Source of the DNA: an uncultured Candidatus Saccharibacteria bacterium
GTDB lineage: Bacteria > Patescibacteriota > Minisyncoccia > Phycocordibacterales > UBA5272
Length of the DNA: 64,000 bases
Assembly: GCA_964348515.1 (NCBI GenBank)
Contig: CAYGDA010000001.1
Span: forward strand, 11,357 to 75,356
Direction of reading: 5' to 3'
Shown here one piece after another: positions 32,000-55,563 of this stretch (its first letter is position 1; the number at the start of each line of letters is the position of its first letter). The notes under the pieces are model-generated. The model was not told where the DNA came from, searched no databases, and saw nothing but the letters and a program-made list of their open reading frames with translations. The position numbers and the translations under genes are program-made.

Positions 32000-32629
32000 C
32001 TACGAAGGCTTCATAAGACGCACAACCGCTTCCCCTCCGAGAACGACAACCATGTCCTGATTGCGGGCTTCGACAGAAAGGGTGACCCTTCTTTTTTCGG
32101 CATCGAGACCGGTCACTGTAACACGCGTGGTTATCCTGTCCCCGATGAAAACCGGGGCCTTGAAAAGGAAAGACTGGGACTCGTAGAGTGTCCCGGCGCC
32201 GGGTAATTCCTTGGACAAAAGCGCCGAAACGAAAGAACCGACGAGCATCCCATGGGCAATAGGACGCTTGAACCTGGTGCCGGCCGCATGAGCCTCGCTG
32301 AAATGCAGGACATTCCAATCGTCGCTTGCCCGTGCAAAATAAAGCAAAAGCTCCGGCTTTATCTCGGTCAGAGAAGAAGCCGTGTCCCCTATCCTCAGAA
32401 TGTTGAAAGGACGCGCGGGGCGGCTATCCTGGAAATACGGAGGAAAAGTCCTGTAGGCGACTTTCCCGACGAGGTCGGCGTGCAGCTCTATTGCCGCACG
32501 TCCAAATTCCCTTCCAAGCAACTGCGGGAACCCCCAGAAAGCGGCCCAAGCCGAGGCAACCAAATCTTCGGCACCGGGGCTGTCTGTTTGGGGAACTTCT
32601 GGAACTGTGGCACTTCCGGACTGGGTCAT
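32000..32629 (-). CDS. MaoC-like (R)-specific enoyl-CoA hydratase/dehydratase (hotdog fold)
   Basis: 'DDWNVLHFSEAHAAGTRFKRPIAHGML' is the MaoC hydratase motif (D-x-N-x2-H...A-H-G). Very GC-rich coding sequence with a 'GGGAGG' SD. Confidence 0.8.
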   Translation of the reverse strand: MTQSGSATVPEVPQTDSPGAEDLVASAWAAFWGFPQLLGREFGRAAIELHADLVGKVAYRTFPPYFQDSRPARPFNILRIGDTASSLTEIKPELLLYFARASDDWNVLHFSEAHAAGTRFKRPIAHGMLVGSFVSALLSKELPGAGTLYESQSFLFKAPVFIGDRITTRVTVTGLDAEKRRVTLSVEARNQDMVVVLGGEAVVRLMKPS

Positions 32630-32717
32630 GACGACCTCCCTTCAAGTAAAACTTACAAAATGCAGGAACCTCCTCTCTATATCGTACTCCGATAAAAATA
32701 AAACCCTAAGTGGATAA

Positions 32718-45270: not shown

Positions 45271-45373
45271 AAACAAAACCTGAGCCTCTTAGGCTGGTTA
45301 TACCCCACATATTAACCTACTTCCCGTAAAAAGCAACGTTTTTAACCCCTTTACGGGAGTGCCGGCAAACCCA

Positions 45374-45402
45374 TTGACTTTTCACTCTAAATATGCTTTA
45401 AT
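45374..45402 (+). promoter_or_regulatory. sigma70-like promoter of GC-rich cassette A (CATTGACTTT -35 box, 17-nt spacer, TTTAAT)
   Basis: TTGACT 45374-45379, TTTAAT 45397-45402. Then the CCGG-ATTT-CCGG hairpin (45426-45437), the GAGGAGAAT SD (45463-45471) and the ATG at 45476. Same scaffold as at 53557. Confidence 0.5.
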
Positions 45403-45475
45403 GAGGGTCGCTGTATAGGGGTAGTCCGGATTTCCGGCCTGCCATTGAAATACTTTTTCCAAGAGGAGAATTCTG

Positions 45476-46078
45476 ATGAACGCAGTCATCTCGGAAGTGC
45501 CCGGCCTCAGCCTGCAGGGTCAAGACCAGTTTCTGGTGAAGTTTTTTTTCACCAACCCGAAGCATATCCCCGACGGTATCCCGTCGGTGGAACGCAAAGC
45601 CGAGGGCATCATCGCCGGAACCCACAAGCTCCAGGCGATGAAAGCCGGTCAATCCGACCTGGCGGAAACCGGCCGCGTGCGCAACGGCATGACGGACACC
45701 GGCACGATGGTGTACCAGAACATCGAAGCCTGCCACGCCGGCTTCATACGCCGCGGCCTCGTCAATTCCGGCTTCGCGCTGGAATCGTTGCACCACTACG
45801 TGCAGCGCAAGGAAGACCGCGCGCCGAAGTTCGTGGTCGTGCTTTCGTTCGTCCGCGGCGCCAACAAGCTGCCTCTTCCCCGCAAGGTGGACGAGGCGCT
45901 GCGCGCCCTGGCGAAATCCACGTGGTTCGGCCATGTCTGGGACAACTCAGCCGTGGGCAATCCCGCCACGATTAACTTCGTGGGCAAACAGGAGCGCCAG
46001 CCCCTGAACGCCCTCGTCGTACGCGGCGGCCGCCTGGAAGTGGTCATCGCAAGCCAGTCGACCATCGACGAAGCCTGA
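45476..46078 (+). CDS. hypothetical protein, GC-rich foreign-looking cargo gene
   Basis: 200-aa ORF in an island of about 60% GC with promoter, SD and terminator. No motif I recognise. Antisense and alternative-frame ORFs here are GC artefacts. Confidence 0.6.
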   Translation: MNAVISEVPGLSLQGQDQFLVKFFFTNPKHIPDGIPSVERKAEGIIAGTHKLQAMKAGQSDLAETGRVRNGMTDTGTMVYQNIEACHAGFIRRGLVNSGFALESLHHYVQRKEDRAPKFVVVLSFVRGANKLPLPRKVDEALRALAKSTWFGHVWDNSAVGNPATINFVGKQERQPLNALVVRGGRLEVVIASQSTIDEA

Positions 46079-46110
46079 ACGCCTTCTCCCCTTCGCGGAC
46101 TCATTTCCGC

Positions 46111-46143
46111 ACCCCCGCCTTTCGACGGGGGTTTTATTTTTGT
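46111..46143. terminator. intrinsic terminator (ACCCCCG-CCTTTCGA-CGGGGGT + TTTTATTTTTGTTT)
   Basis: 7-bp GC stem plus T-rich tail directly after the 45476 gene and 1 nt from the truD (-) stop. Confidence 0.6.
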
Positions 46144-47580
46144 TTAGTTTTCTTCGCCGATTAACTTTTCAAAAATATTATCTCTTTTTGTATGAAGCAC
46201 TTCTTTGAAAAATTCTATGGCGCTTTCCGAACTTCCCTCTCCTAAAAGCGATTTTGTGTCCACAACTATATCAGGAATTTCTTCCGGCGGTTTTCCCGAA
46301 AGCAAAACAAAAAGATGCGCCAGAAAAGTCGTGGCGTATTGTCCTTTGTCCAAAGTGAAAGAAAGAGCCACTCCTTCATTTGTAATTTTTACGCTGTGCA
46401 TTTTTGCGTCAACTTTTGTGTCCACGGTTCTGTGCATAAGGCGGATTGCCGGAAACGGTTTCAGATTGCGGAAAGGAGGCGGATACATATGGTTGTCCTC
46501 AAGAATGTTCCTGTACGGTTCCAAATCTTTTCTGTCAAAACTAAGAAACAGAGGAAGTTCTTTGGGCAAAGGTCCGCCGACTTGGGCGTATATTGAAAGT
46601 TTTTCGTTGAAAAGCCATGAAGAGACAGCGTAGACCCAAAGCATTATCTGCTCGGGAATTTGCTGAAGCGCCCCCACATAATCCCCTTCGTGATTCAAAA
46701 GATGGCGCAGAATCCTGAGTTCGCAGTCAAAAAGCACCGGGAACGGTTCAAAATATTCTATGCACTCCCGCCATGAACCCCATCTGGCCAAAACCTCATT
46801 GCGCAAAAATTGAACATAAGGAAGTTCGTTGGGAGAACTCTCGGTCAGATATTGCTTTACCGCTTTTCCGTAATCGCCCTTGATAATGCTGTACGCCCAG
46901 CGGAAGTTTGAGAGACGCGGCGTGCCGAAACGCTGAAGATAATAAAAATTATAAACCTCGCCGTGGGTCACCCGTTCAACGGCCTGCATAAAAATATCTT
47001 TCTTCTCAGTTTTCTCAAGAGGCGCGGGCAAGCGCATAAAAATGGTGAAGCGGTTTCCTGTCAGCTTTCCGCGGTCCATAACGCCAACACCCGCGGTAAC
47101 GTCTTTCAGAAAAAAGTGCGCGGAGGACGCGGAGCGTATTTTCTCCGGGGATACTCCCTTTATTGAAATGCGCTGGGCGGTAATGGCGTCTTTATCTTTT
47201 ATCCCGGCGTAACGGATATTTTCTTTCGGGCAGTCCAGCAATTCCGCCAAATCCCGTATGGCTTCTTCAGTCTGAATACCGCATTTAACGAGAGTGGCAA
47301 AATAACTCTGCGCTTCGGGCAAATCAGCTTCCGAAGCCAGATTTCTGCGTTCAATCGTGCAAACCTCGCCTTTTTCGTCCACTTCCTCAACAATGAAATC
47401 CGACGGAGTGAATTTCAAAAATCCCTGAGGCAAAACATCTTTGTACGGAATGCGTATACCAAGCGGCTCCAAGAGTTCGGCGTCTTCAACAAAAGTGTGG
47501 AGTTTAAACAAATCCGGATGGGTTGAATAAACTTTTGCCAAATTCCGGATTTCAATTTCCTTGTCCTCTACTCGGGTCAT
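46144..47580 (-). CDS. truD: tRNA pseudouridine synthase TruD/Pus7 family
   Basis: 'FLKFTPSDFIVEE' N-terminus and catalytic-Asp motif 'AGIKDKDA'. Confidence 0.82.
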   Translation of the reverse strand: MTRVEDKEIEIRNLAKVYSTHPDLFKLHTFVEDAELLEPLGIRIPYKDVLPQGFLKFTPSDFIVEEVDEKGEVCTIERRNLASEADLPEAQSYFATLVKCGIQTEEAIRDLAELLDCPKENIRYAGIKDKDAITAQRISIKGVSPEKIRSASSAHFFLKDVTAGVGVMDRGKLTGNRFTIFMRLPAPLEKTEKKDIFMQAVERVTHGEVYNFYYLQRFGTPRLSNFRWAYSIIKGDYGKAVKQYLTESSPNELPYVQFLRNEVLARWGSWRECIEYFEPFPVLFDCELRILRHLLNHEGDYVGALQQIPEQIMLWVYAVSSWLFNEKLSIYAQVGGPLPKELPLFLSFDRKDLEPYRNILEDNHMYPPPFRNLKPFPAIRLMHRTVDTKVDAKMHSVKITNEGVALSFTLDKGQYATTFLAHLFVLLSGKPPEEIPDIVVDTKSLLGEGSSESAIEFFKEVLHTKRDNIFEKLIGEEN

Positions 47581-49534: not shown

Positions 49535-49990
49535 ATGACAATACAAGAGAAAATAAAAGAAGATTTAAAGGAAGCGATGAAAGCCAAGGATGAAATCAGA
49601 ATGCTTACCCTGCGGGGACTTATTTCCGGATTCACGAACGAACTTGTGGCTACAAAACGCATGCCAAACGAGTCTATTCCCGACGAGGACGCCTTAAATG
49701 TAATACGCCGTGCCACAAAACAGCGCAAAGACGCCATAGAACAGTTCACCGCCGGCGGGCGTCCCGAACTTGCCGACAATGAACGTAAAGAGTTAGCGAT
49801 TCTTGAAGTATATCTGCCGAAAATGATGAGCGAGGACGAGGTCATGGCTTTTGCCGAAAAGAAAGTGGCCGAACTCGGCGGGGATAAATCTAAAGCGGGA
49901 CTTATAGTAGGCGCTTTAATGAAAGACTTAAAAGGCAAAGCTGACGGAGCGGTTGTAAAGGCTGTGGTTGATAAGCTGTTGACAAACTGA
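49535..49990 (+). CDS. yqeY: GatB/YqeY domain-containing protein
   Basis: 'IKEDLKEAMKAKDEIRMLTLRGLISGF...' and '...AGLIVGALMKDLKGKADGAVVKAVV' are the YqeY family signature. Confidence 0.85.
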   Translation: MTIQEKIKEDLKEAMKAKDEIRMLTLRGLISGFTNELVATKRMPNESIPDEDALNVIRRATKQRKDAIEQFTAGGRPELADNERKELAILEVYLPKMMSEDEVMAFAEKKVAELGGDKSKAGLIVGALMKDLKGKADGAVVKAVVDKLLTN

Positions 49991-50028
49991 CAAACGTTGT
50001 AGAATTATAAACAGAACAGTACCAAGAC

Positions 50029-50610
50029 ATGAATCAGCCCCCAAACCCAATCGAGGAGCCAAATATGGACGAGAGACCGGTTCCTCCCTTGGAAGCTTAC
50101 CAGGAGGAATCAGAAAGGTTAGAAAGCCAAAACCCGGCGAAGAGACCCCCGGAAAGTTTCGGCGTACCCACTCTGCCAATGCCTGATACAACGGGTATGC
50201 CGGAATCTATGAAGGAGATAATCCGCAAGCGCCACGCCCCGCCGGTTGATGTCGGGAGTCTTCCAATGCCCGAACCACTTCCCGATGAAGCTTGGGCAGA
50301 CTCTGCGGGAAATCTTTTTCCCCCGGAGAACGACGACCCCCACCAGGGCGAACCCGAAGGATTAGAAGGTACGCCTGCGGGAATGGAGCACACCGTGGCT
50401 ATAGCGGAAGAAGCCGCCCATCCTACCGAGAGTGTCCGCCAAGCGCTTCCCAATCGTGAAGGCCGGAAAGCCGAGAGAGCCCACGAAGCGGCCAAAGCCG
50501 AAGACCCGACAAAAGGCACCCGGCTGTGGTGGAAAGAGCAGGAGGAACACGAGGACGAAACCGCCGAATTGAGAAAGAGAGCGGAAGGAAGCGGAAAGTC
50601 CGGATCATAA
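50029..50610 (+). CDS. hypothetical acidic, Pro/Glu-rich intrinsically disordered protein
   Basis: 193-aa ORF with low-complexity P/E/A composition in a moderately GC-enriched segment. No TM and no motif. Confidence 0.4.
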   Translation: MNQPPNPIEEPNMDERPVPPLEAYQEESERLESQNPAKRPPESFGVPTLPMPDTTGMPESMKEIIRKRHAPPVDVGSLPMPEPLPDEAWADSAGNLFPPENDDPHQGEPEGLEGTPAGMEHTVAIAEEAAHPTESVRQALPNREGRKAERAHEAAKAEDPTKGTRLWWKEQEEHEDETAELRKRAEGSGKSGS

Positions 50611-50890
50611 CGCGAGGGATTCCCCCGAGCGTTTTTTAATTACAGGAAGGACAACTTATTAAAAAAGCCGCTTTCAAAAGTGGCTTCGCCGTCAGTTATT
50701 TCAGGTTCTGTTTCTTTGCGTCAGGATTGCTTGAGCTTGTTACCTTTTTTCCACCGGTGAAAATCGGTTCAATAAGGGACCACGCCCAATCATCAAACCT
50801 GTCCAGAAGCTTTTTCAGTATTTGCATGAATAACCCTCAAGGCCGGAAAATCAGTCAAAAAGAATTTTCTGCCGTCAGTCTATCCTATTT

Positions 50891-51371: not shown

Positions 51372-51443
51372 GGCCCTATCGTCTAACGGTTAGGACGAGA
51401 GCTTCTCAAGCTCTAAATCCGGGTTCGATTCCCGGTAGGGTCA
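51372..51443 (+). tRNA. tRNA-Glu (anticodon CUC)
   Basis: 72-nt cloverleaf folded by hand. Acceptor GGCCCTA/TAGGGTC, D-arm GTCT/GGAC, anticodon stem AGAGC/GCTCT with loop TTCTCAA, T-arm CCGGG-TTCGATT-CCCGG, discriminator A. CCA not encoded. Confidence 0.85.
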
Positions 51444-51489
51444 CAAGTTGCTAATCTGGCACGTTTCCACGACTAGACAACAAAAATTA

Positions 51490-52020
51490 ATGAAGCATCG
51501 AGAACTAACAGATCATATAAAAGGTTCCTTTTTGAAAAGACAATACCTAGAAGCTTTCCTTGTTCAAAGTGCATATATAGAAAGTCTTCTGAAACTATCA
51601 GCAGATTACAGCTTCTTTTTGGCTACATCGAAAGTTAGGAAACCTTCTCCTCCCAAAATTCTTGAAGTAGTAAGTAGAAACTTAGAACGAATGGCTCTTA
51701 ATGATTTAATCAATTTTCTGTACAAAGCTGAGGTAATTACAAAAAAACAGAAAGATCTATTAGACGAATACAGAATAAGGAGAAATAAAATGCTTCATGA
51801 TCTTATTACTGAAATTCAGAAAGATAAATTTGAGGTTGAGTTGAGGGAAATTTGTGAAAAAGGTACGTTGATAATTGAGGATCAAGCATTTATTGAAATG
51901 GCGGATTTGATTGATTTTTTGGAGAAGCCACAATCTACTGAAAACGTAGACCAGACTTCTCAAGCTAAACTACCCGCTGTCCCCAATATTGAAAATAATA
52001 GAAATAAAGAAACTACCTAA
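51490..52020 (+). CDS. hypothetical alpha-helical protein with canonical HEPN motif (R-N-x3-H)
   Basis: 176 aa from the ATG at 51490 (the ORF track starts at a TTG at 51448). 'YRIRRNKMLHDL' contains R-N-K-M-L-H, the R[NHQD]xxxH HEPN RNase signature. AT-rich (about 32% GC) and directly 3' of the tRNA. Confidence 0.5.
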   Translation: MKHRELTDHIKGSFLKRQYLEAFLVQSAYIESLLKLSADYSFFLATSKVRKPSPPKILEVVSRNLERMALNDLINFLYKAEVITKKQKDLLDEYRIRRNKMLHDLITEIQKDKFEVELREICEKGTLIIEDQAFIEMADLIDFLEKPQSTENVDQTSQAKLPAVPNIENNRNKETT

Positions 52021-52059
52021 GAATCTCTTAAGGTCTGAATGTAATCTTCGCTCAATTTT

Positions 52060-52278
52060 CTACTCATCCTTCATATCCCACCTCCGCTTATTGATTTCCT
52101 CCATTTGTTTGTAGGAATGGACGTATTTCTTCCGGTGCTTACTCTCCCTAATCTCTTCCAACTGCTCCTTTGTTAGTAAGGGTGTTTTCAGTTTGCCAAT
52201 CTGTTTAAGAAGACTCTTGGCGAAAGTTCGAGGTCTGTCCCGATACGGTTCACAAATGGAAATCTCATAATTAACAAA
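52060..52278 (-). pseudogene. degenerate C-terminal fragment of a tyrosine recombinase/integrase (no start codon)
   Basis: Stop-to-stop frame translates to '...RDRPRTFAKSLLKQIGKLKTPLLTKEQLEEIRESKHRKKYVHSYKQ...'. This resembles integrase box II (R-H-T-F-A-x-x-L-L ... G-H ... R-Y-x-H) with the Tyr about 35 aa after the Arg. No ATG near the 5' end. Confidence 0.3.
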
Positions 52279-52330
52279 TTACAAAAACTTGACTTACAAA
52301 TGTTTTATTATAGTCTGAGGGAAAAGAAGC

Positions 52331-52933
52331 ATGACTAGTGTCTCCACAACCACACAATTATTATTGCTCCAACAGAAAATTGATTCTTTTGATTGGATAA
52401 TCACTGAAACCACCTTAACCCTGACTTTTTTAATTGCGTTATTTGTGGCCATTCAATTTGTTTACTCACGCAAACTTCAAGTAAAGGACATCGAAAAACT
52501 TAAATTAAATCTTACTAATTTCATTACTAACAAGGTAGATGATAAAGCGCTCGATTTACAGTCGCTAATTAGACAAACTACAGAGGAGTTGAGATCAAAC
52601 ATAAAGGAAGACCAAATCACCCTAACGGCCGAAATTTCAAGAAGTTATGCCCTTCATAACGAACAACTAGGGGCCTTCGAAAATGCCTTTGAATGGTGGT
52701 TAAAGGCCGCAAGATTTTACAAAGAATCAAAAGAAGAAGACCTATTCCGGATATCGTTTGATTCCGCGCTTGATTCTATTACTAAGCTCGATATTACCAA
52801 TAAAGGCGCCTTAAAACTTTTACTCAAACACATGCCTGTTATAGAAGGGTACTTAAATTTTTTGAGACCTTTCAATAAGATTGAAATAGAGATTTTAGAA
52901 AAAAAACTAAAAGAAAAATTAGAGACTCTCTAA
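52331..52933 (+). CDS. hypothetical membrane-anchored helical protein (island gene)
   Basis: 200 aa. One TM helix 'WIITETTLTLTFLIALFVAIQFVY', then helical/coiled-coil. AT-rich. Confidence 0.5.
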   Translation: MTSVSTTTQLLLLQQKIDSFDWIITETTLTLTFLIALFVAIQFVYSRKLQVKDIEKLKLNLTNFITNKVDDKALDLQSLIRQTTEELRSNIKEDQITLTAEISRSYALHNEQLGAFENAFEWWLKAARFYKESKEEDLFRISFDSALDSITKLDITNKGALKLLLKHMPVIEGYLNFLRPFNKIEIEILEKKLKEKLETL

Positions 52934-53556: not shown

Positions 53557-53585
53557 TTGACTTTCCTACTTTTTTGTAGTATAAT
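53557..53585 (+). promoter_or_regulatory. consensus sigma70 promoter of GC-rich cassette B (CATTGACTTT ... 17 nt ... TATAAT)
   Basis: TTGACT 53557-53562, 17-nt spacer, perfect TATAAT 53580-53585. Then the GGGG-ATTT-CCCC hairpin (53612-53623), the GAGGAGAAT SD (53649-53657) and the GTG at 53661. Confidence 0.6.
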
Positions 53586-53660
53586 ACGTGTCAGAAATTT
53601 AGAGAAGATTCGGGGATTTCCCCTTAACTAAACCCGCAGTACATTAACGAGGAGAATCAC

Positions 53661-54461
53661 GTGATTGGATCCCCCATCAGCCTGGCGGAAATGCGCGAAA
53701 TTGGCTATCTGGCAGGCGGAATCATGAAGACCTACTTCACCCACTTCGGGATGGAAAGGGTCGTCAAAACCGACACCACCCCGCTTACCAAAGCGGACAC
53801 CGAAATCAACGACATGGTCATCGAGCACGTTCGGCGCATAGCGCCGGAAATCGACATCATCGGCGAAGAGCGCAGCGCCCGCCTGAACAGCCCCTGGCAA
53901 ATCGTCTGCGACCCCGTGGACGGCACTTTCCCCTACTCTTGGGGAATGCCTGTGGCAACGTTCATGCTGGGAGTGCTCTACAAGCACCAGCCTATGGCGG
54001 GCGTCATCTACGACCCGTTCACCGACAGGATGTATTCGGCGGAGGTCGGCAAAGGCGCCTGGATGAACGACAAGAAGCTCAGGGTTTCCAAGGTCAGCAA
54101 AAAGGAAGACCGTCCCATCGTCGGCTACGTCTCCTGGCCGGGCTGCCCGTTTAACGTCATCGGGGCATGCGCGTTTCTGGAGTCGCGGGGAGTTACGCTC
54201 GTGAACATCTGTTCCATCGGCTACCTCGAAGTGGCGGTGGCAAACGGAGAATTCGCGGGTACGATTTTCCCCGGCACGGCATACCACGACACGGCTCCGG
54301 GACACGTCATCGTGGAGGAAGCCGGCGGACTGGTCACTGACATTCTGGGAAACCCCCTCAAGTACGAGGACGGAAAAATCCAGGGCCACATCATGTCCAA
54401 CGGCAGGATTCACGAGCTCCTGGTGAGCGGTATGAGGATTGCGCAGTCGCACACACGCTAG
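53661..54461 (+). CDS. inositol monophosphatase family protein (IMPase/SuhB/CysQ-like)
   Basis: 'DPVDGT' metal-binding motif, 'IDIIGEE' and 'HDTAPGHVIVEEAGG' (WDxAAG-like) motifs. GTG start. About 60% GC. Confidence 0.82.
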   Translation: MIGSPISLAEMREIGYLAGGIMKTYFTHFGMERVVKTDTTPLTKADTEINDMVIEHVRRIAPEIDIIGEERSARLNSPWQIVCDPVDGTFPYSWGMPVATFMLGVLYKHQPMAGVIYDPFTDRMYSAEVGKGAWMNDKKLRVSKVSKKEDRPIVGYVSWPGCPFNVIGACAFLESRGVTLVNICSIGYLEVAVANGEFAGTIFPGTAYHDTAPGHVIVEEAGGLVTDILGNPLKYEDGKIQGHIMSNGRIHELLVSGMRIAQSHTR

Positions 54462-54472
54462 AGGCTTGCGCG

Positions 54473-54513
54473 GGCGCGGACGGTTTCAACAAACCGGACG
54501 CGCCTTTTATTTT
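54473..54513 (+). terminator. strong intrinsic terminator (two-tier hairpin GGCGCG-GA-CGGTTT-CAAC-AAACCG-GA-CGCGCC + TTTTATTTT)
   Basis: Perfect 12-bp interrupted stem followed by a T-rich tail, 12 nt after the IMPase stop. Lies inside the 5' extension of ORF 54439, so that extension is not coding. Confidence 0.7.
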
Positions 54514-54528
54514 GCCTTTAAATTGGCT

Positions 54529-55563
54529 ATGCTTTCCCTAACAAATAAACACGAAATGGCTTACTCGCAAAAACCTCTTATAGATTTGATGAAAAAAGGG
54601 CAAGTCCCGGGAGAAAGCGGAATCCCCCGCCACATTGAAACCGTGATTTCAAATGTTTTTCTTTTTGACAAAAACGCCTACAAAATCTACAAAAACGATA
54701 ATGATTTTTTCAACAAAGAGTTCCGCGACATTTCAGGCAAAGAGGAGCGCTTCACCTTCACCCGCGGAGACTTCGCATGGAACAACAAACTCAGTCCGTC
54801 CATCTATTTAAAGCTTATGGGGATACGCGTAGCCGCCGGAGAAATAGAATTCCTTGAACCTGTGGACGAAGCCGATGACCTGGTCATTTTTATGAACCGT
54901 GTTGATTCAAAAGATTTCCTGGTTGAAAAACTTATGCGCGGCGAAATCACAGAAAAAGACGCCTTCTCCATAGGCAGACAGCTTGGAGAAACTTTGGGTC
55001 ACTTAAAGGCGCCGAAGGTGGAAGGGCAAAATTATTACGAACTTTTTGAGAGCAGGATTAAAGACATGCGGGAATGGATAAAGATGGTGAACGAATATAT
55101 AAGCGAGGAAGAATCCGGCGCGTACTGTGATTTTCTGGAAAATTTCCGCAACAAAAACAAGGGTCTGCTTGAAGGCACGATGAGCGATGAACTCGCCCAC
55201 AGCGGAGATTTGCACAGCCATAACGCGGTTTTTACGGGCGGAAAGCTTCACCTGGTGGACACCTTCCCTCCCAAAGAAGAATGGCTCATACAGCACCGTA
55301 TGATATCAGTGTACAGAATGGGTTCGGACATCTGGGCTTTAAGCGGAGACAAAAACCTGTTTGAGTCTTATATAAAAGGATACGAAGAAGGGAGCGGGAT
55401 AAAAGTGGACAGAAATCTTGATGTTCCGTTTGTTATATACGCTTCTTCTATAATGGTTTCTTATTTGTATATGCTCCAGAGAACCGACCCTAAAAACAAA
55501 GAATCGGCTCTGCGCTTCCACAAATTCATACGCGAATATTTCGCGGAGGTAAAAAATAAATAA
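54529..55563 (+). CDS. putative phosphotransferase of the protein-kinase-like (APH/choline-kinase) fold
   Basis: 'SGDLHSHNAVF' (HGDxxxxN catalytic loop-like) and 'LHLVDTF' (DFG/DxE-like). Start placed after the terminator (MLSLTNK at 54529 or MAYSQ at 54556). Confidence 0.5.
   Translation: MLSLTNKHEMAYSQKPLIDLMKKGQVPGESGIPRHIETVISNVFLFDKNAYKIYKNDNDFFNKEFRDISGKEERFTFTRGDFAWNNKLSPSIYLKLMGIRVAAGEIEFLEPVDEADDLVIFMNRVDSKDFLVEKLMRGEITEKDAFSIGRQLGETLGHLKAPKVEGQNYYELFESRIKDMREWIKMVNEYISEEESGAYCDFLENFRNKNKGLLEGTMSDELAHSGDLHSHNAVFTGGKLHLVDTFPPKEEWLIQHRMISVYRMGSDIWALSGDKNLFESYIKGYEEGSGIKVDRNLDVPFVIYASSIMVSYLYMLQRTDPKNKESALRFHKFIREYFAEVKNK

What the first reader, a model, noticed from the sequence alone, without database searches (positions are those of the whole stretch)
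53557..54513. GC-rich cassette B: inositol-monophosphatase-family gene in the same scaffold as cassette A
This is the second instance of the scaffold: a perfect TTGACT-17-TATAAT promoter, a GGGG-ATTT-CCCC hairpin, GAGGAGAAT, a GTG start, and a strong two-tier terminator ending TTTTATTTT. It carries a roughly 60%-GC IMPase/SuhB/CysQ-like gene. The terminator lies inside the annotated 5' extension of the downstream ORF, which therefore must start later. Cargo of recognisable but non-essential function is typical of laterally acquired cassettes. Together with A, it argues for a reusable regulatory module.
Basis: seen in the sequence. Interest (0 to 1): 0.7.

Follow-up and report, generated by a model that had tools for sequence, protein, structure and literature searches.

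The report
GC-rich phosphatase gene unit in Paceibacteria
A stand-alone, GC-rich inositol-monophosphatase-family gene with its own promoter, ribosome-binding site and terminator sits in a mid-GC candidate-phyla-radiation (Patescibacteria) chromosome; it belongs to that phylum rather than being an import from another, and its relatives are GC-rich in every related genome sampled, which is the odd part.

Summary
These are TTGACT-17-TATAAT, the GGGG-ATTT-CCCC hairpin, GAGGAGAAT, a GTG start, an 801-nt IMPase-family gene and a strong hairpin plus TTTTATTTT terminator. GC3 is 0.79 against 0.47 ± 0.06 for 58 other genes (z = 5.6).

- All close homologues (56-73% identity) come from Patescibacteria or Paceibacteria, not Actinobacteria or Proteobacteria.
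- The gene is almost always next to the same downstream gene, X, which has an aminoglycoside/choline-kinase fold.
- There are no mobility genes and no convincing flanking repeats.
- The 5'-UTR hairpin is absent from orthologues.

In 17 of 17 orthologous loci the gene is GC3-richer than its host, by up to +0.47. Eighteen more distant paralogues are host-like. The codon usage resembles that of GC-rich Paceibacteria.

The shared "scaffold" marks a gene class. These genomes mostly use leaderless or Shine-Dalgarno-less starts. The few Shine-Dalgarno-led genes, including cassettes A and B, are the GC-rich ones (p about 1e-5).

My best reading (about 0.45) is a phylum-internal GC-rich allele pool. 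It would spread by recombination or replacement from GC-rich relatives and then partly ameliorate. The main rival (about 0.3) is vertical inheritance with gene-specific maintenance of GC.

The parts
53557..53585 (+). Sigma-70-type promoter: TTGACT (-35), 17-nt spacer, TATAAT (-10).
   Evidence: This is an 11/12 consensus match. It is one of only two such sites in 64 kb; the other precedes cassette A.
53592..53660 (+). Inferred 5' UTR of about 69 nt. The transcription start is not mapped.
   Evidence: Inferred from the position of the -10 box. Folding is not better than shuffles (z = -0.42). Rfam gives no match.
53613..53624 (+). Small hairpin GGGG-ATTT-CCCC in the leader.
   Evidence: A CCGG-ATTT-CCGG counterpart sits at the same 36-nt distance from the Shine-Dalgarno sequence in cassette A. 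It is not conserved in 16 orthologous leaders.
53649..53657 (+). Shine-Dalgarno region GAGGAGAAT.
   Evidence: Predicted pairing to the anti-Shine-Dalgarno sequence is -8.9 kcal/mol. It is one of few strong Shine-Dalgarno sites in the window.
53661..54461 (+). IMPase-family phosphatase gene, 266 aa, GTG start, GC 0.589, GC3 0.787.
   Evidence: Pfam PF00459 at 3.4e-41 and PDB IMPases. No NCBIfam equivalog cut-off is reached. The conserved N-terminus in orthologues supports the GTG start.
54473..54513 (+). Intrinsic terminator: two-tier hairpin GGCGCGGACGGTTT/AAACCGGACGCGCC followed by TTTTATTTT.
   Evidence: -31.2 kcal/mol, z = -4.65. The outer stem GCGCGGAC...CCGCGC is conserved in 11 of 17 orthologues, with a varying inner stem that still pairs.
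54556..55563 (+). Linked gene X: small-molecule kinase of the aminoglycoside-phosphotransferase/choline-kinase fold, with host-like GC (GC3 about 0.51). Its own -10-like box lies close upstream.
   Evidence: Adjacent to the IMPase gene in 14 of 17 loci. Named APH family by JGI. AlphaFold model has pLDDT 94.7. Foldseek hits APH(2''), glucosamine kinase and choline kinase at probability 1.0.
53628..54452 (-). Codon-aligned antisense ORF of 274 aa. It is not a gene.
   Evidence: It exists because the sense gene has no TTA, CTA or TCA codons. The orthologues carry 1-6 such codons each, so the antisense ORF is not conserved.
45374..46145 (+). Cassette A, the sister unit: TTGACT-17-TTTAAT, hairpin CCGGATTTCCGG, GAGGAGAAT, ATG 45476 to 46078 (200 aa, unknown fold, GC3 0.826), and a terminator at 46111-46145.

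Best explanation
Cassette B is a monocistronic, leadered transcription unit for a Paceibacteria-specific subfamily of IMPase-fold sugar-phosphate phosphatases. The substrate is unknown.

A near-consensus sigma-70 promoter drives a roughly 70-nt leader. Translation starts from a strong Shine-Dalgarno sequence at GTG 53661. A very stable hairpin with a U-tract ends the transcript before the next gene. That next gene, X, encodes a kinase of the aminoglycoside/choline-kinase fold, and the two genes form a conserved phosphatase-kinase pair.

The gene is not cargo from another phylum. Its GC-rich codon usage is a trait of the whole subfamily. I infer that the subfamily forms a GC-rich allele pool centred in GC-rich Paceibacteria. 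Alleles would move between lineages by natural transformation and homologous recombination, including recombination within the gene, and would replace the resident copy at the same locus. In low- and mid-GC hosts they would then drift part of the way toward host composition.

The promoter, Shine-Dalgarno sequence and terminator are the standard equipment of the minority of leadered genes in these genomes. Most other genes there use leaderless or Shine-Dalgarno-less starts. This equipment is not a portable module.

Shown: the anatomy, family membership, phylum-internal phylogeny, linkage to X, the family-wide GC excess, and the link between Shine-Dalgarno use and GC3. Inferred: promoter and terminator activity, recombination as the vehicle, and the direction of transfer from GC-rich lineages.
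For: **Anatomy and family.**

**Phylum-internal relatives.**

**Family-wide GC excess.** The orthologue's GC3 exceeds the host median in 17 of 17 loci, by +0.04 to +0.47. Eighteen paralogues at 31-46% identity are host-like, with mean difference -0.02.

**Donor-like codon usage.**
- Both C/(C+T) and G/(G+A) at third positions are raised.
- Relative codon usage of the window IMPase gene and of A correlates at 0.75-0.88 with GC-rich Paceibacteria, and at 0.18-0.39 with the window's own genes.

**Partial drift toward host composition.** At variable amino-acid columns, the first-plus-second-position GC of the IMPase gene shifts only 0.03 between low- and high-GC hosts. X shifts 0.09. Third positions shift 0.10 against 0.34. 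Both classes of site have therefore moved about one third of the way, as expected for limited residence time. Orthologue GC3 ranges from 0.52 to 0.84, including nearly host-like copies.

**Incongruence with the host.** The L054 IMPase is 92% identical to that of L004. Yet L054's neighbourhood, eight shared genes at 48-79% and X at 77%, matches L009, whose IMPase is only 73% identical.

**Mosaicism within the gene.** The PHI recombination test gives z = -5.4 on all sites and z = -2.1 (p = 0.03) on third positions; X gives no signal. L017 is closest to the window over the first 150 nt and closest to L004/L054 over the rest.

**Recombination at this locus.** A co-occurring strain contig is 96-100% identical on both sides of a divergent stretch inside X.

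**Mechanism is available.** Natural transformation with homologous recombination has been demonstrated in Patescibacteria, and com genes are conserved across the group (PMC10633639).

**Gene class.** Genes with a strong Shine-Dalgarno sequence average +0.14 GC3 above their locus median against 0.00 for the rest (n = 140, p about 1e-5). Control upstream zones show no effect. A peak of -10 boxes 6-7 nt before start codons shows that leaderless promoters are common.
Against: - Conserved adjacency to X, and of A to truD, is explained most simply by vertical descent.
- Upstream flanks differ between genomes, so two-sided homologous replacement has no obvious anchor.
- No donor closer than 73% identity (68% for A) exists among 5.8 billion proteins, although the genes look barely ameliorated.
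- Window A and its L057 orthologue are saturated at synonymous sites. Both are still GC-rich, in hosts that are both mid-GC.
- X is hypervariable, so the lack of correlation between IMPase and X identities (r = -0.09) is weak evidence.
- The polarised excess of GC-to-AT changes is confounded by near-saturated outgroups.
- The PHI signal at third positions is modest.
- No orthologue is AT-richer than its host. This requires one-directional flow.
Confidence: 0.45

Rival explanations
1. The gene is inherited vertically and its GC-richness is actively maintained. The IMPase gene, like cassette A, has stayed at its locus since early in Paceibacteria evolution. A gene-specific force keeps its synonymous sites G/C-rich whatever the host mutation bias. 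That force could be selection for a long-lived, strongly expressed, structurally insulated mRNA (leader hairpin, GC-rich body, very stable terminator), selection for particular codons, or GC-biased gene conversion.
For: - IMPase-X linkage holds in 14 of 17 loci, in three different orientations, and A-truD linkage holds in 4 of 4 genomes.
- All 17 orthologues are GC3-richer than their hosts, and none is poorer.
- Window A and L057 A are saturated at four-fold sites (0.41 observed, 0.36 expected). Both still have GC3 of 0.75-0.83 in hosts at about 0.45.
- L009 and L054 are related low-GC hosts. Their IMPase identity of 73% is in line with their other shared genes, and both copies have GC3 of 0.72-0.75.
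- No close donor has been sampled.
- These genes carry the strongest promoters, Shine-Dalgarno sequences and terminators in the window.
- The window IMPase gene prefers C over T in two-fold codons (0.91) much more than G over A (0.52), which looks partly like translational selection.
Against: - Ribosomal-protein and RNA-polymerase genes in the same loci show no GC3 excess.
- The implied selection strength would have to range from about 0.2 to 2 logit units and be greatest in the AT-richest hosts.
- Some orthologues (L024, L025, L006) are almost host-like, so a high GC content is not required.
- Amino-acid composition at variable sites is also only partly host-shifted.
- G-ending four-fold codons are enriched too, which fits a GC-rich-genome signature better than tRNA-driven selection.
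- No mechanism is known that links Shine-Dalgarno-led initiation to GC-rich coding sequence.
Confidence: 0.3
2. The unit is a mobile expression cassette recently captured from a high-GC phylum such as Actinobacteria or Proteobacteria. It carries non-essential cargo inside a reusable promoter-hairpin-RBS-terminator scaffold.
For: - GC3 is 5.6 sd above the genome mean.
- The upstream layout is shared with cassette A.
- A tRNA-Glu gene and an AT-rich islet lie 1-2 kb upstream, which suggests a variable region.
Against: - All close homologues are Patescibacteria.
- Linkage to X is conserved.
- There are no integrase, transposase or attC-like sites and no convincing direct repeats.
- The hairpin is not conserved in orthologues.
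- Nothing related is found on viral contigs.
Confidence: 0.04
3. The GC-rich block is an assembly chimera, or it encodes a second, antisense protein (ORF 53628-54452 on the minus strand) that constrains its composition.
For: A 274-aa antisense ORF spans the whole gene.
Against: - The same gene with its flanks was recovered in three independent assemblies.
- Orthologous GC-rich islands with the same neighbour occur in many MAGs.
- Orthologues contain 1-6 antisense stop codons, so the antisense ORF is a by-product of high GC3.
Confidence: 0.02

Closest known systems
Inositol monophosphatase / FBPase / SuhB / CysQ / HisN superfamily (Pfam PF00459)
   Same: The full-length domain matches, with the DPxDGT and EE metal-binding motifs invariant across the subfamily alignment.
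   Different: It reaches no equivalog cut-off for SuhB, CysQ, HisN or archaeal FBPase/IMPase. It forms a Patescibacteria-only subfamily tied to a kinase-fold neighbour. The substrate is unknown.
Compositionally atypical genes from horizontal transfer that then ameliorate (Lawrence-Ochman model), including orthologous or xenologous replacement by recombination
   Same: There are sharp GC3 boundaries at the gene ends, donor-like codon usage, a partial shift toward host composition, and some gene-versus-neighbour incongruence and mosaicism.
   Different: The anomaly affects a whole gene family in many lineages at a conserved locus. It always goes in one direction, GC-richer than the host. No donor has been sampled and there is no mobility machinery.
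Integron gene cassettes
   Same: It is a single ORF followed by an imperfect inverted repeat, and a second similar unit lies nearby.
   Different: Integron cassettes normally lack promoters, end in attC sites and sit in arrays next to an integrase gene (intI). Here each unit has its own promoter. The 3' repeat is a hairpin with a U-tract, that is, an intrinsic terminator. The two units are 8 kb apart among housekeeping genes, and no intI is present.
Leadered versus leaderless gene classes, as described in Actinobacteria, Deinococcus and archaea
   Same: There are many -10 boxes 6-7 nt before start codons, and a minority of Shine-Dalgarno-led leadered genes.
   Different: I found no prior description of this in Patescibacteria in the searchable literature. 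The link between Shine-Dalgarno use and high GC3 is not a known feature of those systems, as far as I know.

Membership tests
IMPase superfamily (PF00459) | Full-length match to the family profile above the curated cut-off. | tested here: met
   142 bits against a cut-off of 27, residues 17-256. PDB IMPases match down to 3e-20.
IMPase superfamily (PF00459) | Metal-binding motifs: acidic EE, DPxDGT, and a C-terminal Asp motif. | tested here: met
   E69, E70, D84, P85, D87, G88, T89, D210 and G214 are invariant in 26 subfamily sequences.
Specific IMPase-fold enzymes (SuhB, CysQ, HisN, archaeal FBPase/IMPase) | Score at or above the NCBIfam equivalog cut-off. | tested here: not met
   The best hit is HisN at 109.5 bits against 275. 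The others fall further below their cut-offs.
Recently acquired foreign gene or genomic island | Composition distinct from the host genome. | tested here: met
   GC3 is 0.787 against 0.468 ± 0.057. Codon usage is unlike the host's.
Recently acquired foreign gene or genomic island | Closest relatives lie outside the host lineage. | tested here: not met
   All named close relatives are Patescibacteria.
Recently acquired foreign gene or genomic island | Mobility genes, att sites or flanking direct repeats. | tested here: not met
   Neighbours are a membrane protein, kinase X and a PBP. Only short repeats of chance quality are found.
Recently acquired foreign gene or genomic island | Gene tree incongruent with the host or neighbouring genes. 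| tested here: inconclusive
   The L054/L004/L009 conflict and the PHI signal point to transfer. However, X is hypervariable and few genes are shared between loci.
Recently acquired foreign gene or genomic island | Presence/absence polymorphism, or an empty site in close relatives. | not testable with these tools
   The only close relative recovered (L060, 1.26 kb) carries the gene's 3' end.
Integron gene cassette | An attC recombination site, an adjacent intI/attI, and a promoterless ORF in an array. | tested here: not met
   The unit has its own promoter. Its 3' element is a terminator with a U-tract. No integrase is found in 64 kb.
Intrinsic (Rho-independent) terminator | A GC-rich stem-loop directly followed by a U-tract downstream of the stop codon. 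| tested here: met
   Hairpin 54473-54504 plus TTTTATTTT, z = -4.65. All 17 orthologues have equivalent hairpins at -21 to -38 kcal/mol. Activity was not measured.
Known cis-regulatory leader RNA (riboswitch, thermometer, ribosomal-protein leader) | A match to a curated family, or a conserved and stable leader structure. | tested here: not met
   No Rfam match at E ≤ 5. Fold z = -0.42. The hairpin is absent from orthologues.
Aminoglycoside-phosphotransferase/choline-kinase-fold small-molecule kinases (neighbour X) | A bilobal kinase fold with a catalytic D-x-H-x-x-N loop and a downstream metal-binding Asp. | tested here: met
   The model has pLDDT 94.7. Foldseek probability is 1.0 to APH(2''), glucosamine kinase and choline kinase. 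D218, H220, N223 and D235 are invariant. There is no Pfam hit.

The most novel reading that the evidence does not exclude
Paceibacteria genomes contain two classes of genes. The majority are leaderless or lack a Shine-Dalgarno sequence and follow the host's AT-biased composition. The minority are Shine-Dalgarno-led, carry their own promoter and terminator, and include this IMPase gene and cassette A. In this reading the GC-rich coding sequence of the minority class is actively held far above genome composition across many lineages at conserved loci. That would imply an unrecognised gene-specific constraint or GC-biased process tied to how these mRNAs are translated or stabilised.
Probability: 0.25. 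Interest if true: 0.75.

Novelty: new variant of a known kind. Interest (0 to 1): 0.5.

Why it matters
Compositional islands are normally read as recent foreign DNA that fades with time. Here the same gene is GC-rich in 17 of 17 related genomes whose own GC3 ranges from 0.28 to 0.75, it keeps the same neighbour, and its relatives lie within the host phylum.

Two readings follow. Either ultra-small Patescibacteria exchange alleles of particular genes across deep lineages often enough to keep a distinct shared composition, or some genes resist genome-wide AT drift. Either reading bears on how these streamlined, naturally transformable episymbionts evolve.

There are practical consequences too:
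- GC-based calls of horizontal transfer, and "donor by GC" guesses, are unreliable in this phylum.
- Gene finders extend leaderless neighbours through terminators.
- The Shine-Dalgarno-led, GC-rich class supplies candidate strong expression signals for the new Patescibacteria genetic systems.
- A conserved pair of an uncharacterised phosphatase and an uncharacterised kinase is flagged for biochemistry.

Tried and rejected
- **Antisense gene.** Rejected, because orthologues carry 1-6 antisense stop codons.
- **Known RNA element in the leader.** No Rfam match, the fold is not significant, and the hairpin is not conserved.
- **CGCGGAC shared by the A and B terminators as a motif.** It is not enriched in the window: 9 found against 7 expected.
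- **Boundary direct repeats.** Only 10-13 of 12-15 matches were found. The right copy at cassette A lies inside the truD coding sequence, so this is probably chance.
- **IMPase-versus-X distance incongruence as proof of transfer.** Downgraded after X proved hypervariable or mosaic between co-occurring strains.
- **Polarised counts of GC-to-AT against AT-to-GC changes as a test of amelioration.** Judged inconclusive, because the outgroups are near saturation and GC-rich. That biases parsimony, and GC-rich-host control lineages also give about 3:1.
- **"Lag" model**, in which a lower mutation rate at this gene preserves ancestral GC. The rate difference seen against X is about 2.4-fold, too small to explain GC3 of 0.73 in a host at 0.29.
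- **Translational selection alone.** Ribosomal-protein and rpoBC genes are not GC3-rich.
- **Phage carriage.** No relatives on IMG/VR contigs.
- **L010 against L011 as a short-timescale test of synonymous constraint.** Too few differences to use.
- **Literature.** Searches found nothing on leaderless or Shine-Dalgarno usage, IMPase, or GC3 heterogeneity in Patescibacteria.
Full report
**Observation.**
- TTGACT at 53557, a 17-nt spacer, and TATAAT ending at 53585.
- GGGGATTTCCCC at 53613-53624.
- GAGGAGAAT at 53649-53657.
- GTG at 53661, opening an 801-nt ORF that ends at 54461.
- A hairpin at 54473-54504 followed by TTTTATTTT.

The promoter-like site is the best of its kind in 44-58 kb. With at most one mismatch, the pattern TTGAC-N18-TATAAT occurs only twice in the 64-kb window. 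Both sites lie about 100 nt upstream of the two GC3 outliers, cassettes A and B. GAGGAGAAT also occurs only at these two genes. The terminator folds at -31.2 kcal/mol with z = -4.65 against shuffles.

The protein is a full-length IMPase-family member: Pfam PF00459 at 3.4e-41 and solved IMPase/SuhB/FBPase chains down to 3e-20. It reaches no NCBIfam equivalog cut-off, so its substrate is unknown.

GC3 is 0.787, against a mean of 0.468 (sd 0.057) for 58 other genes, giving z = 5.6. Cassette A has GC3 0.826, z = 6.3. GC rises at the start codon and falls at the terminator. The window itself is ordinary chromosome, with dnaB, recR, L21, truD, rmuC, mraW, a class II tRNA synthetase and two PBPs.

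**Where the gene belongs.** The closest homologues are 56-73% identical. All that carry names are Patescibacteria: Paceibacterota, Kaiserbacteria, Moranbacteria and "Patescibacteria group". The next tier, at 36-46% identity, is also mostly Patescibacteria. An Actinobacterial or Proteobacterial donor is therefore not supported.

In 14 of 17 orthologous loci the gene sits beside the same gene, X, in three different relative orientations. The wider neighbourhood differs from genome to genome. In the window X runs from 54556 to 55563.

X has no Pfam match. JGI names it an aminoglycoside-phosphotransferase-family enzyme. A high-confidence model (pLDDT 94.7) matches APH(2''), glucosamine kinase, N-acetylhexosamine kinase and choline kinase at probability 1.0. 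D218, H220, N223 and D235 are invariant. The unit is therefore one half of a conserved pair: a phosphatase and a small-molecule kinase.

Orthologues place the X start at ATG 54556. This confirms that the mechanical ORF starting at 54439 wrongly runs through the terminator.

**The compositional anomaly is family-wide.** I compared each orthologue's GC3 with the median GC3 of ORFs in its own 3-20 kb locus. The orthologue is richer in 17 of 17 cases. The difference runs from +0.04 to +0.47 and is largest in the AT-richest hosts; for example, 0.75 against 0.28 in L054. X is at or slightly below host level everywhere. Eighteen more distant IMPase-family genes (31-46% identity) are host-like, with a mean difference of -0.02 and 6 of 18 positive. 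The excess is therefore specific to this subfamily and is not an artefact of the method.

Cassette A behaves the same way. Its family is rare, with 12 homologues, all from Paceibacteria. It is convergent with truD in all four genomes examined. It has GC3 of 0.75-0.83 in the two mid-GC hosts and is at host level in the two GC-rich hosts.

**What the "scaffold" is.** The A and B upstream regions align better than 998 of 1000 shuffles. The shared elements are CATTGACTTT, GGATTTCC and GAGGAGAA(T), at nearly identical spacing. Neither region resembles other upstream regions in the window.

It does not, however, look like a portable regulatory module:
- The hairpin is absent from all 16 orthologous leaders, and one orthologue (L054) has a leader of only about 24 nt.
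- The leaders fold no better than shuffles (z = -0.4 and -0.7).
- Rfam gives no match.

What is conserved in every orthologue is a strong TTGAC[AT]-17-TAnnnT promoter, a Shine-Dalgarno sequence and a very stable terminator (-21 to -38 kcal/mol). Eleven of 17 orthologues share the outer stem GCGCGGAC...CCGCGC around a variable inner stem that still pairs.

The context explains why this stands out. Most genes in the window and in related loci have no Shine-Dalgarno sequence, and many have a -10 box ending 6-7 nt before the start codon. That spacing indicates leaderless transcripts.

I pooled 140 genes from the window and four low- or mid-GC relatives. Genes with a strong predicted Shine-Dalgarno sequence (n = 21-22) average +0.14 GC3 above their locus median. 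The rest average 0.00 (Mann-Whitney p = 4e-6 to 9e-6). Control zones further upstream show no effect.

In the window, the four clearest Shine-Dalgarno-led genes are also the four GC-richest. They are A, B, a Pro/acidic-rich ORF at 50065-50610 with its own promoter and terminator, and a MaoC-like gene at 32000-32629 on the minus strand.

**Why is it GC-rich?** Several ideas can be set aside.
- The full-length antisense ORF is a by-product of the lack of TTA, CTA and TCA codons. It is broken in every orthologue.
- An assembly chimera is excluded by three independent assemblies and many syntenic MAGs.
- Ordinary translational selection is unlikely, because ribosomal-protein and rpoBC genes are not GC3-rich.

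Two explanations remain.

*For an origin in GC-rich relatives with limited residence time:*
- C- and G-ending codons are both enriched.
- Codon usage of the window IMPase gene and of A correlates at 0.75-0.88 with GC-rich Paceibacteria and only 0.18-0.39 with the window's own genes.
- At variable amino-acid columns and at third positions, the IMPase gene has moved only about one third as far toward host composition as X has.
- Orthologue GC3 spans 0.52-0.84, including nearly host-like copies.
- The L054 IMPase is 92% identical to that of L004. Yet L054's neighbourhood (eight shared genes at 48-79%, X at 77%) matches L009, whose IMPase is 73% identical.
- The IMPase alignment is mosaic. The PHI recombination test gives z = -5.4 on all sites and z = -2.1 on third positions, with no signal in X. 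L017 switches its nearest relative after the first 150 nt.
- A co-occurring strain contig (L060) shows a divergent tract inside X between flanks that are 96-100% identical. Recombination with diverged DNA therefore happens at this locus.
- Natural transformation with homologous recombination has been demonstrated experimentally in Patescibacteria (PMC10633639).

*For vertical descent with maintained GC:*
- Both A and B keep their neighbours.
- No donor closer than 73% identity (68% for A) has been sampled.
- Window A and L057 A are saturated at four-fold sites, yet both remain GC-rich in mid-GC hosts.
- The difference from the host is positive in every case.

Three of my own tests turned out weaker than they first looked:
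- The IMPase-versus-X distance comparison is confounded by the hypervariability of X.
- The polarised substitution counts are biased by near-saturated, GC-rich outgroups.
- The L010/L011 pair is too similar to be informative.

**Verdict.** The unit is a leadered, insulated, monocistronic gene for a Patescibacteria-specific IMPase-subfamily phosphatase, paired with a kinase-fold neighbour. It is not a mobile cassette from another phylum.

I favour, at about 0.45, a shared GC-rich allele pool. It would be centred in GC-rich Paceibacteria, spread by recombination or replacement, and partly ameliorate in each host. At about 0.3 I place vertical descent with gene-specific maintenance of GC.

The most novel reading not excluded is a two-class genome. 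In that reading, Shine-Dalgarno-led genes are held GC-rich against the genomic drift toward AT. I found no description of this in the searchable literature.

Noticed in passing
window 54556-55563 (especially 54640-55480) compared with L060: Kinase-fold gene X is hypervariable between co-occurring strains from the same sample. The flanks, including the IMPase 3' end, the terminator and both ends of X, are 96-100% identical. The interior of X falls to 52-90% identity, with 59 synonymous and 53 non-synonymous codon differences. The changes are not A-specific, so this does not look like a diversity-generating retroelement (DGR). The pattern suggests allelic replacement or diversifying selection.
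   Followed up: partly
whole window; loci L054-L059: Most genes lack a Shine-Dalgarno sequence. TAnnnT boxes pile up 6-7 nt before start codons, which indicates widespread leaderless transcription in these Paceibacteria. X itself looks leaderless in many loci. I found no published description of this for the phylum.
   Followed up: partly
window plus L054-L057 (140 genes): Genes with a strong Shine-Dalgarno sequence are GC3-richer than their neighbours, by +0.14 against 0.00 (p about 1e-5). Control upstream zones show no such link. Many of these genes are short hypothetical ORFs with no Pfam family.
   Followed up: partly
window 49979-50640 (+) and 32000-32700 (-): There are two further Shine-Dalgarno-led units with raised GC. 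The first is a 181-aa acidic, Pro-rich protein with TTGACA-18-AATTAT, a leader of about 55 nt, GAGGAG and its own terminator. The second is a MaoC-like dehydratase preceded by GGGAGG.
   Followed up: partly
window 51372-52933: A tRNA-Glu(CTC) gene at 51372-51444 is followed directly by two AT-rich genes (GC 0.33-0.35; one has a weak DUF4145 hit). This is a low-GC islet 0.6-2 kb upstream of cassette B. The 50-55.5 kb stretch is therefore a compositional patchwork.
   Followed up: no
[not shown]
   Followed up: partly
window 54473-54513 and orthologous 3' ends (L004, L007, L009, L010, L014, L017, L018, L024, L054, L056): The terminator's outer stem, (A)GCGCGGAC(G)...(C)GYCCGCGC, is conserved in sequence across lineages whose synonymous sites are near saturation. 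The inner stem varies but still pairs. This is more conservation than a generic terminator needs.
   Followed up: partly
window 45370-45384 and 46157-46171: A 13/15 direct repeat, CCCATTGACTTTTCA and CCGATTAACTTTTCA, brackets cassette A. The right copy lies inside the 3' coding end of truD, so it is probably chance.
   Followed up: partly
window 53628-54452 (-) and 45398-45934 (-): Long antisense ORFs lie across both GC-rich genes. They are artefacts of high GC3 and could be miscalled as genes.
   Followed up: yes
L005, L006, L009 and L015 record titles: Several MAGs that carry this Patescibacteria-type locus are labelled "uncultured Bdellovibrionales" or "Saccharibacteria" in their records. 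These labels may be taxonomic mislabels or binning errors.
   Followed up: no
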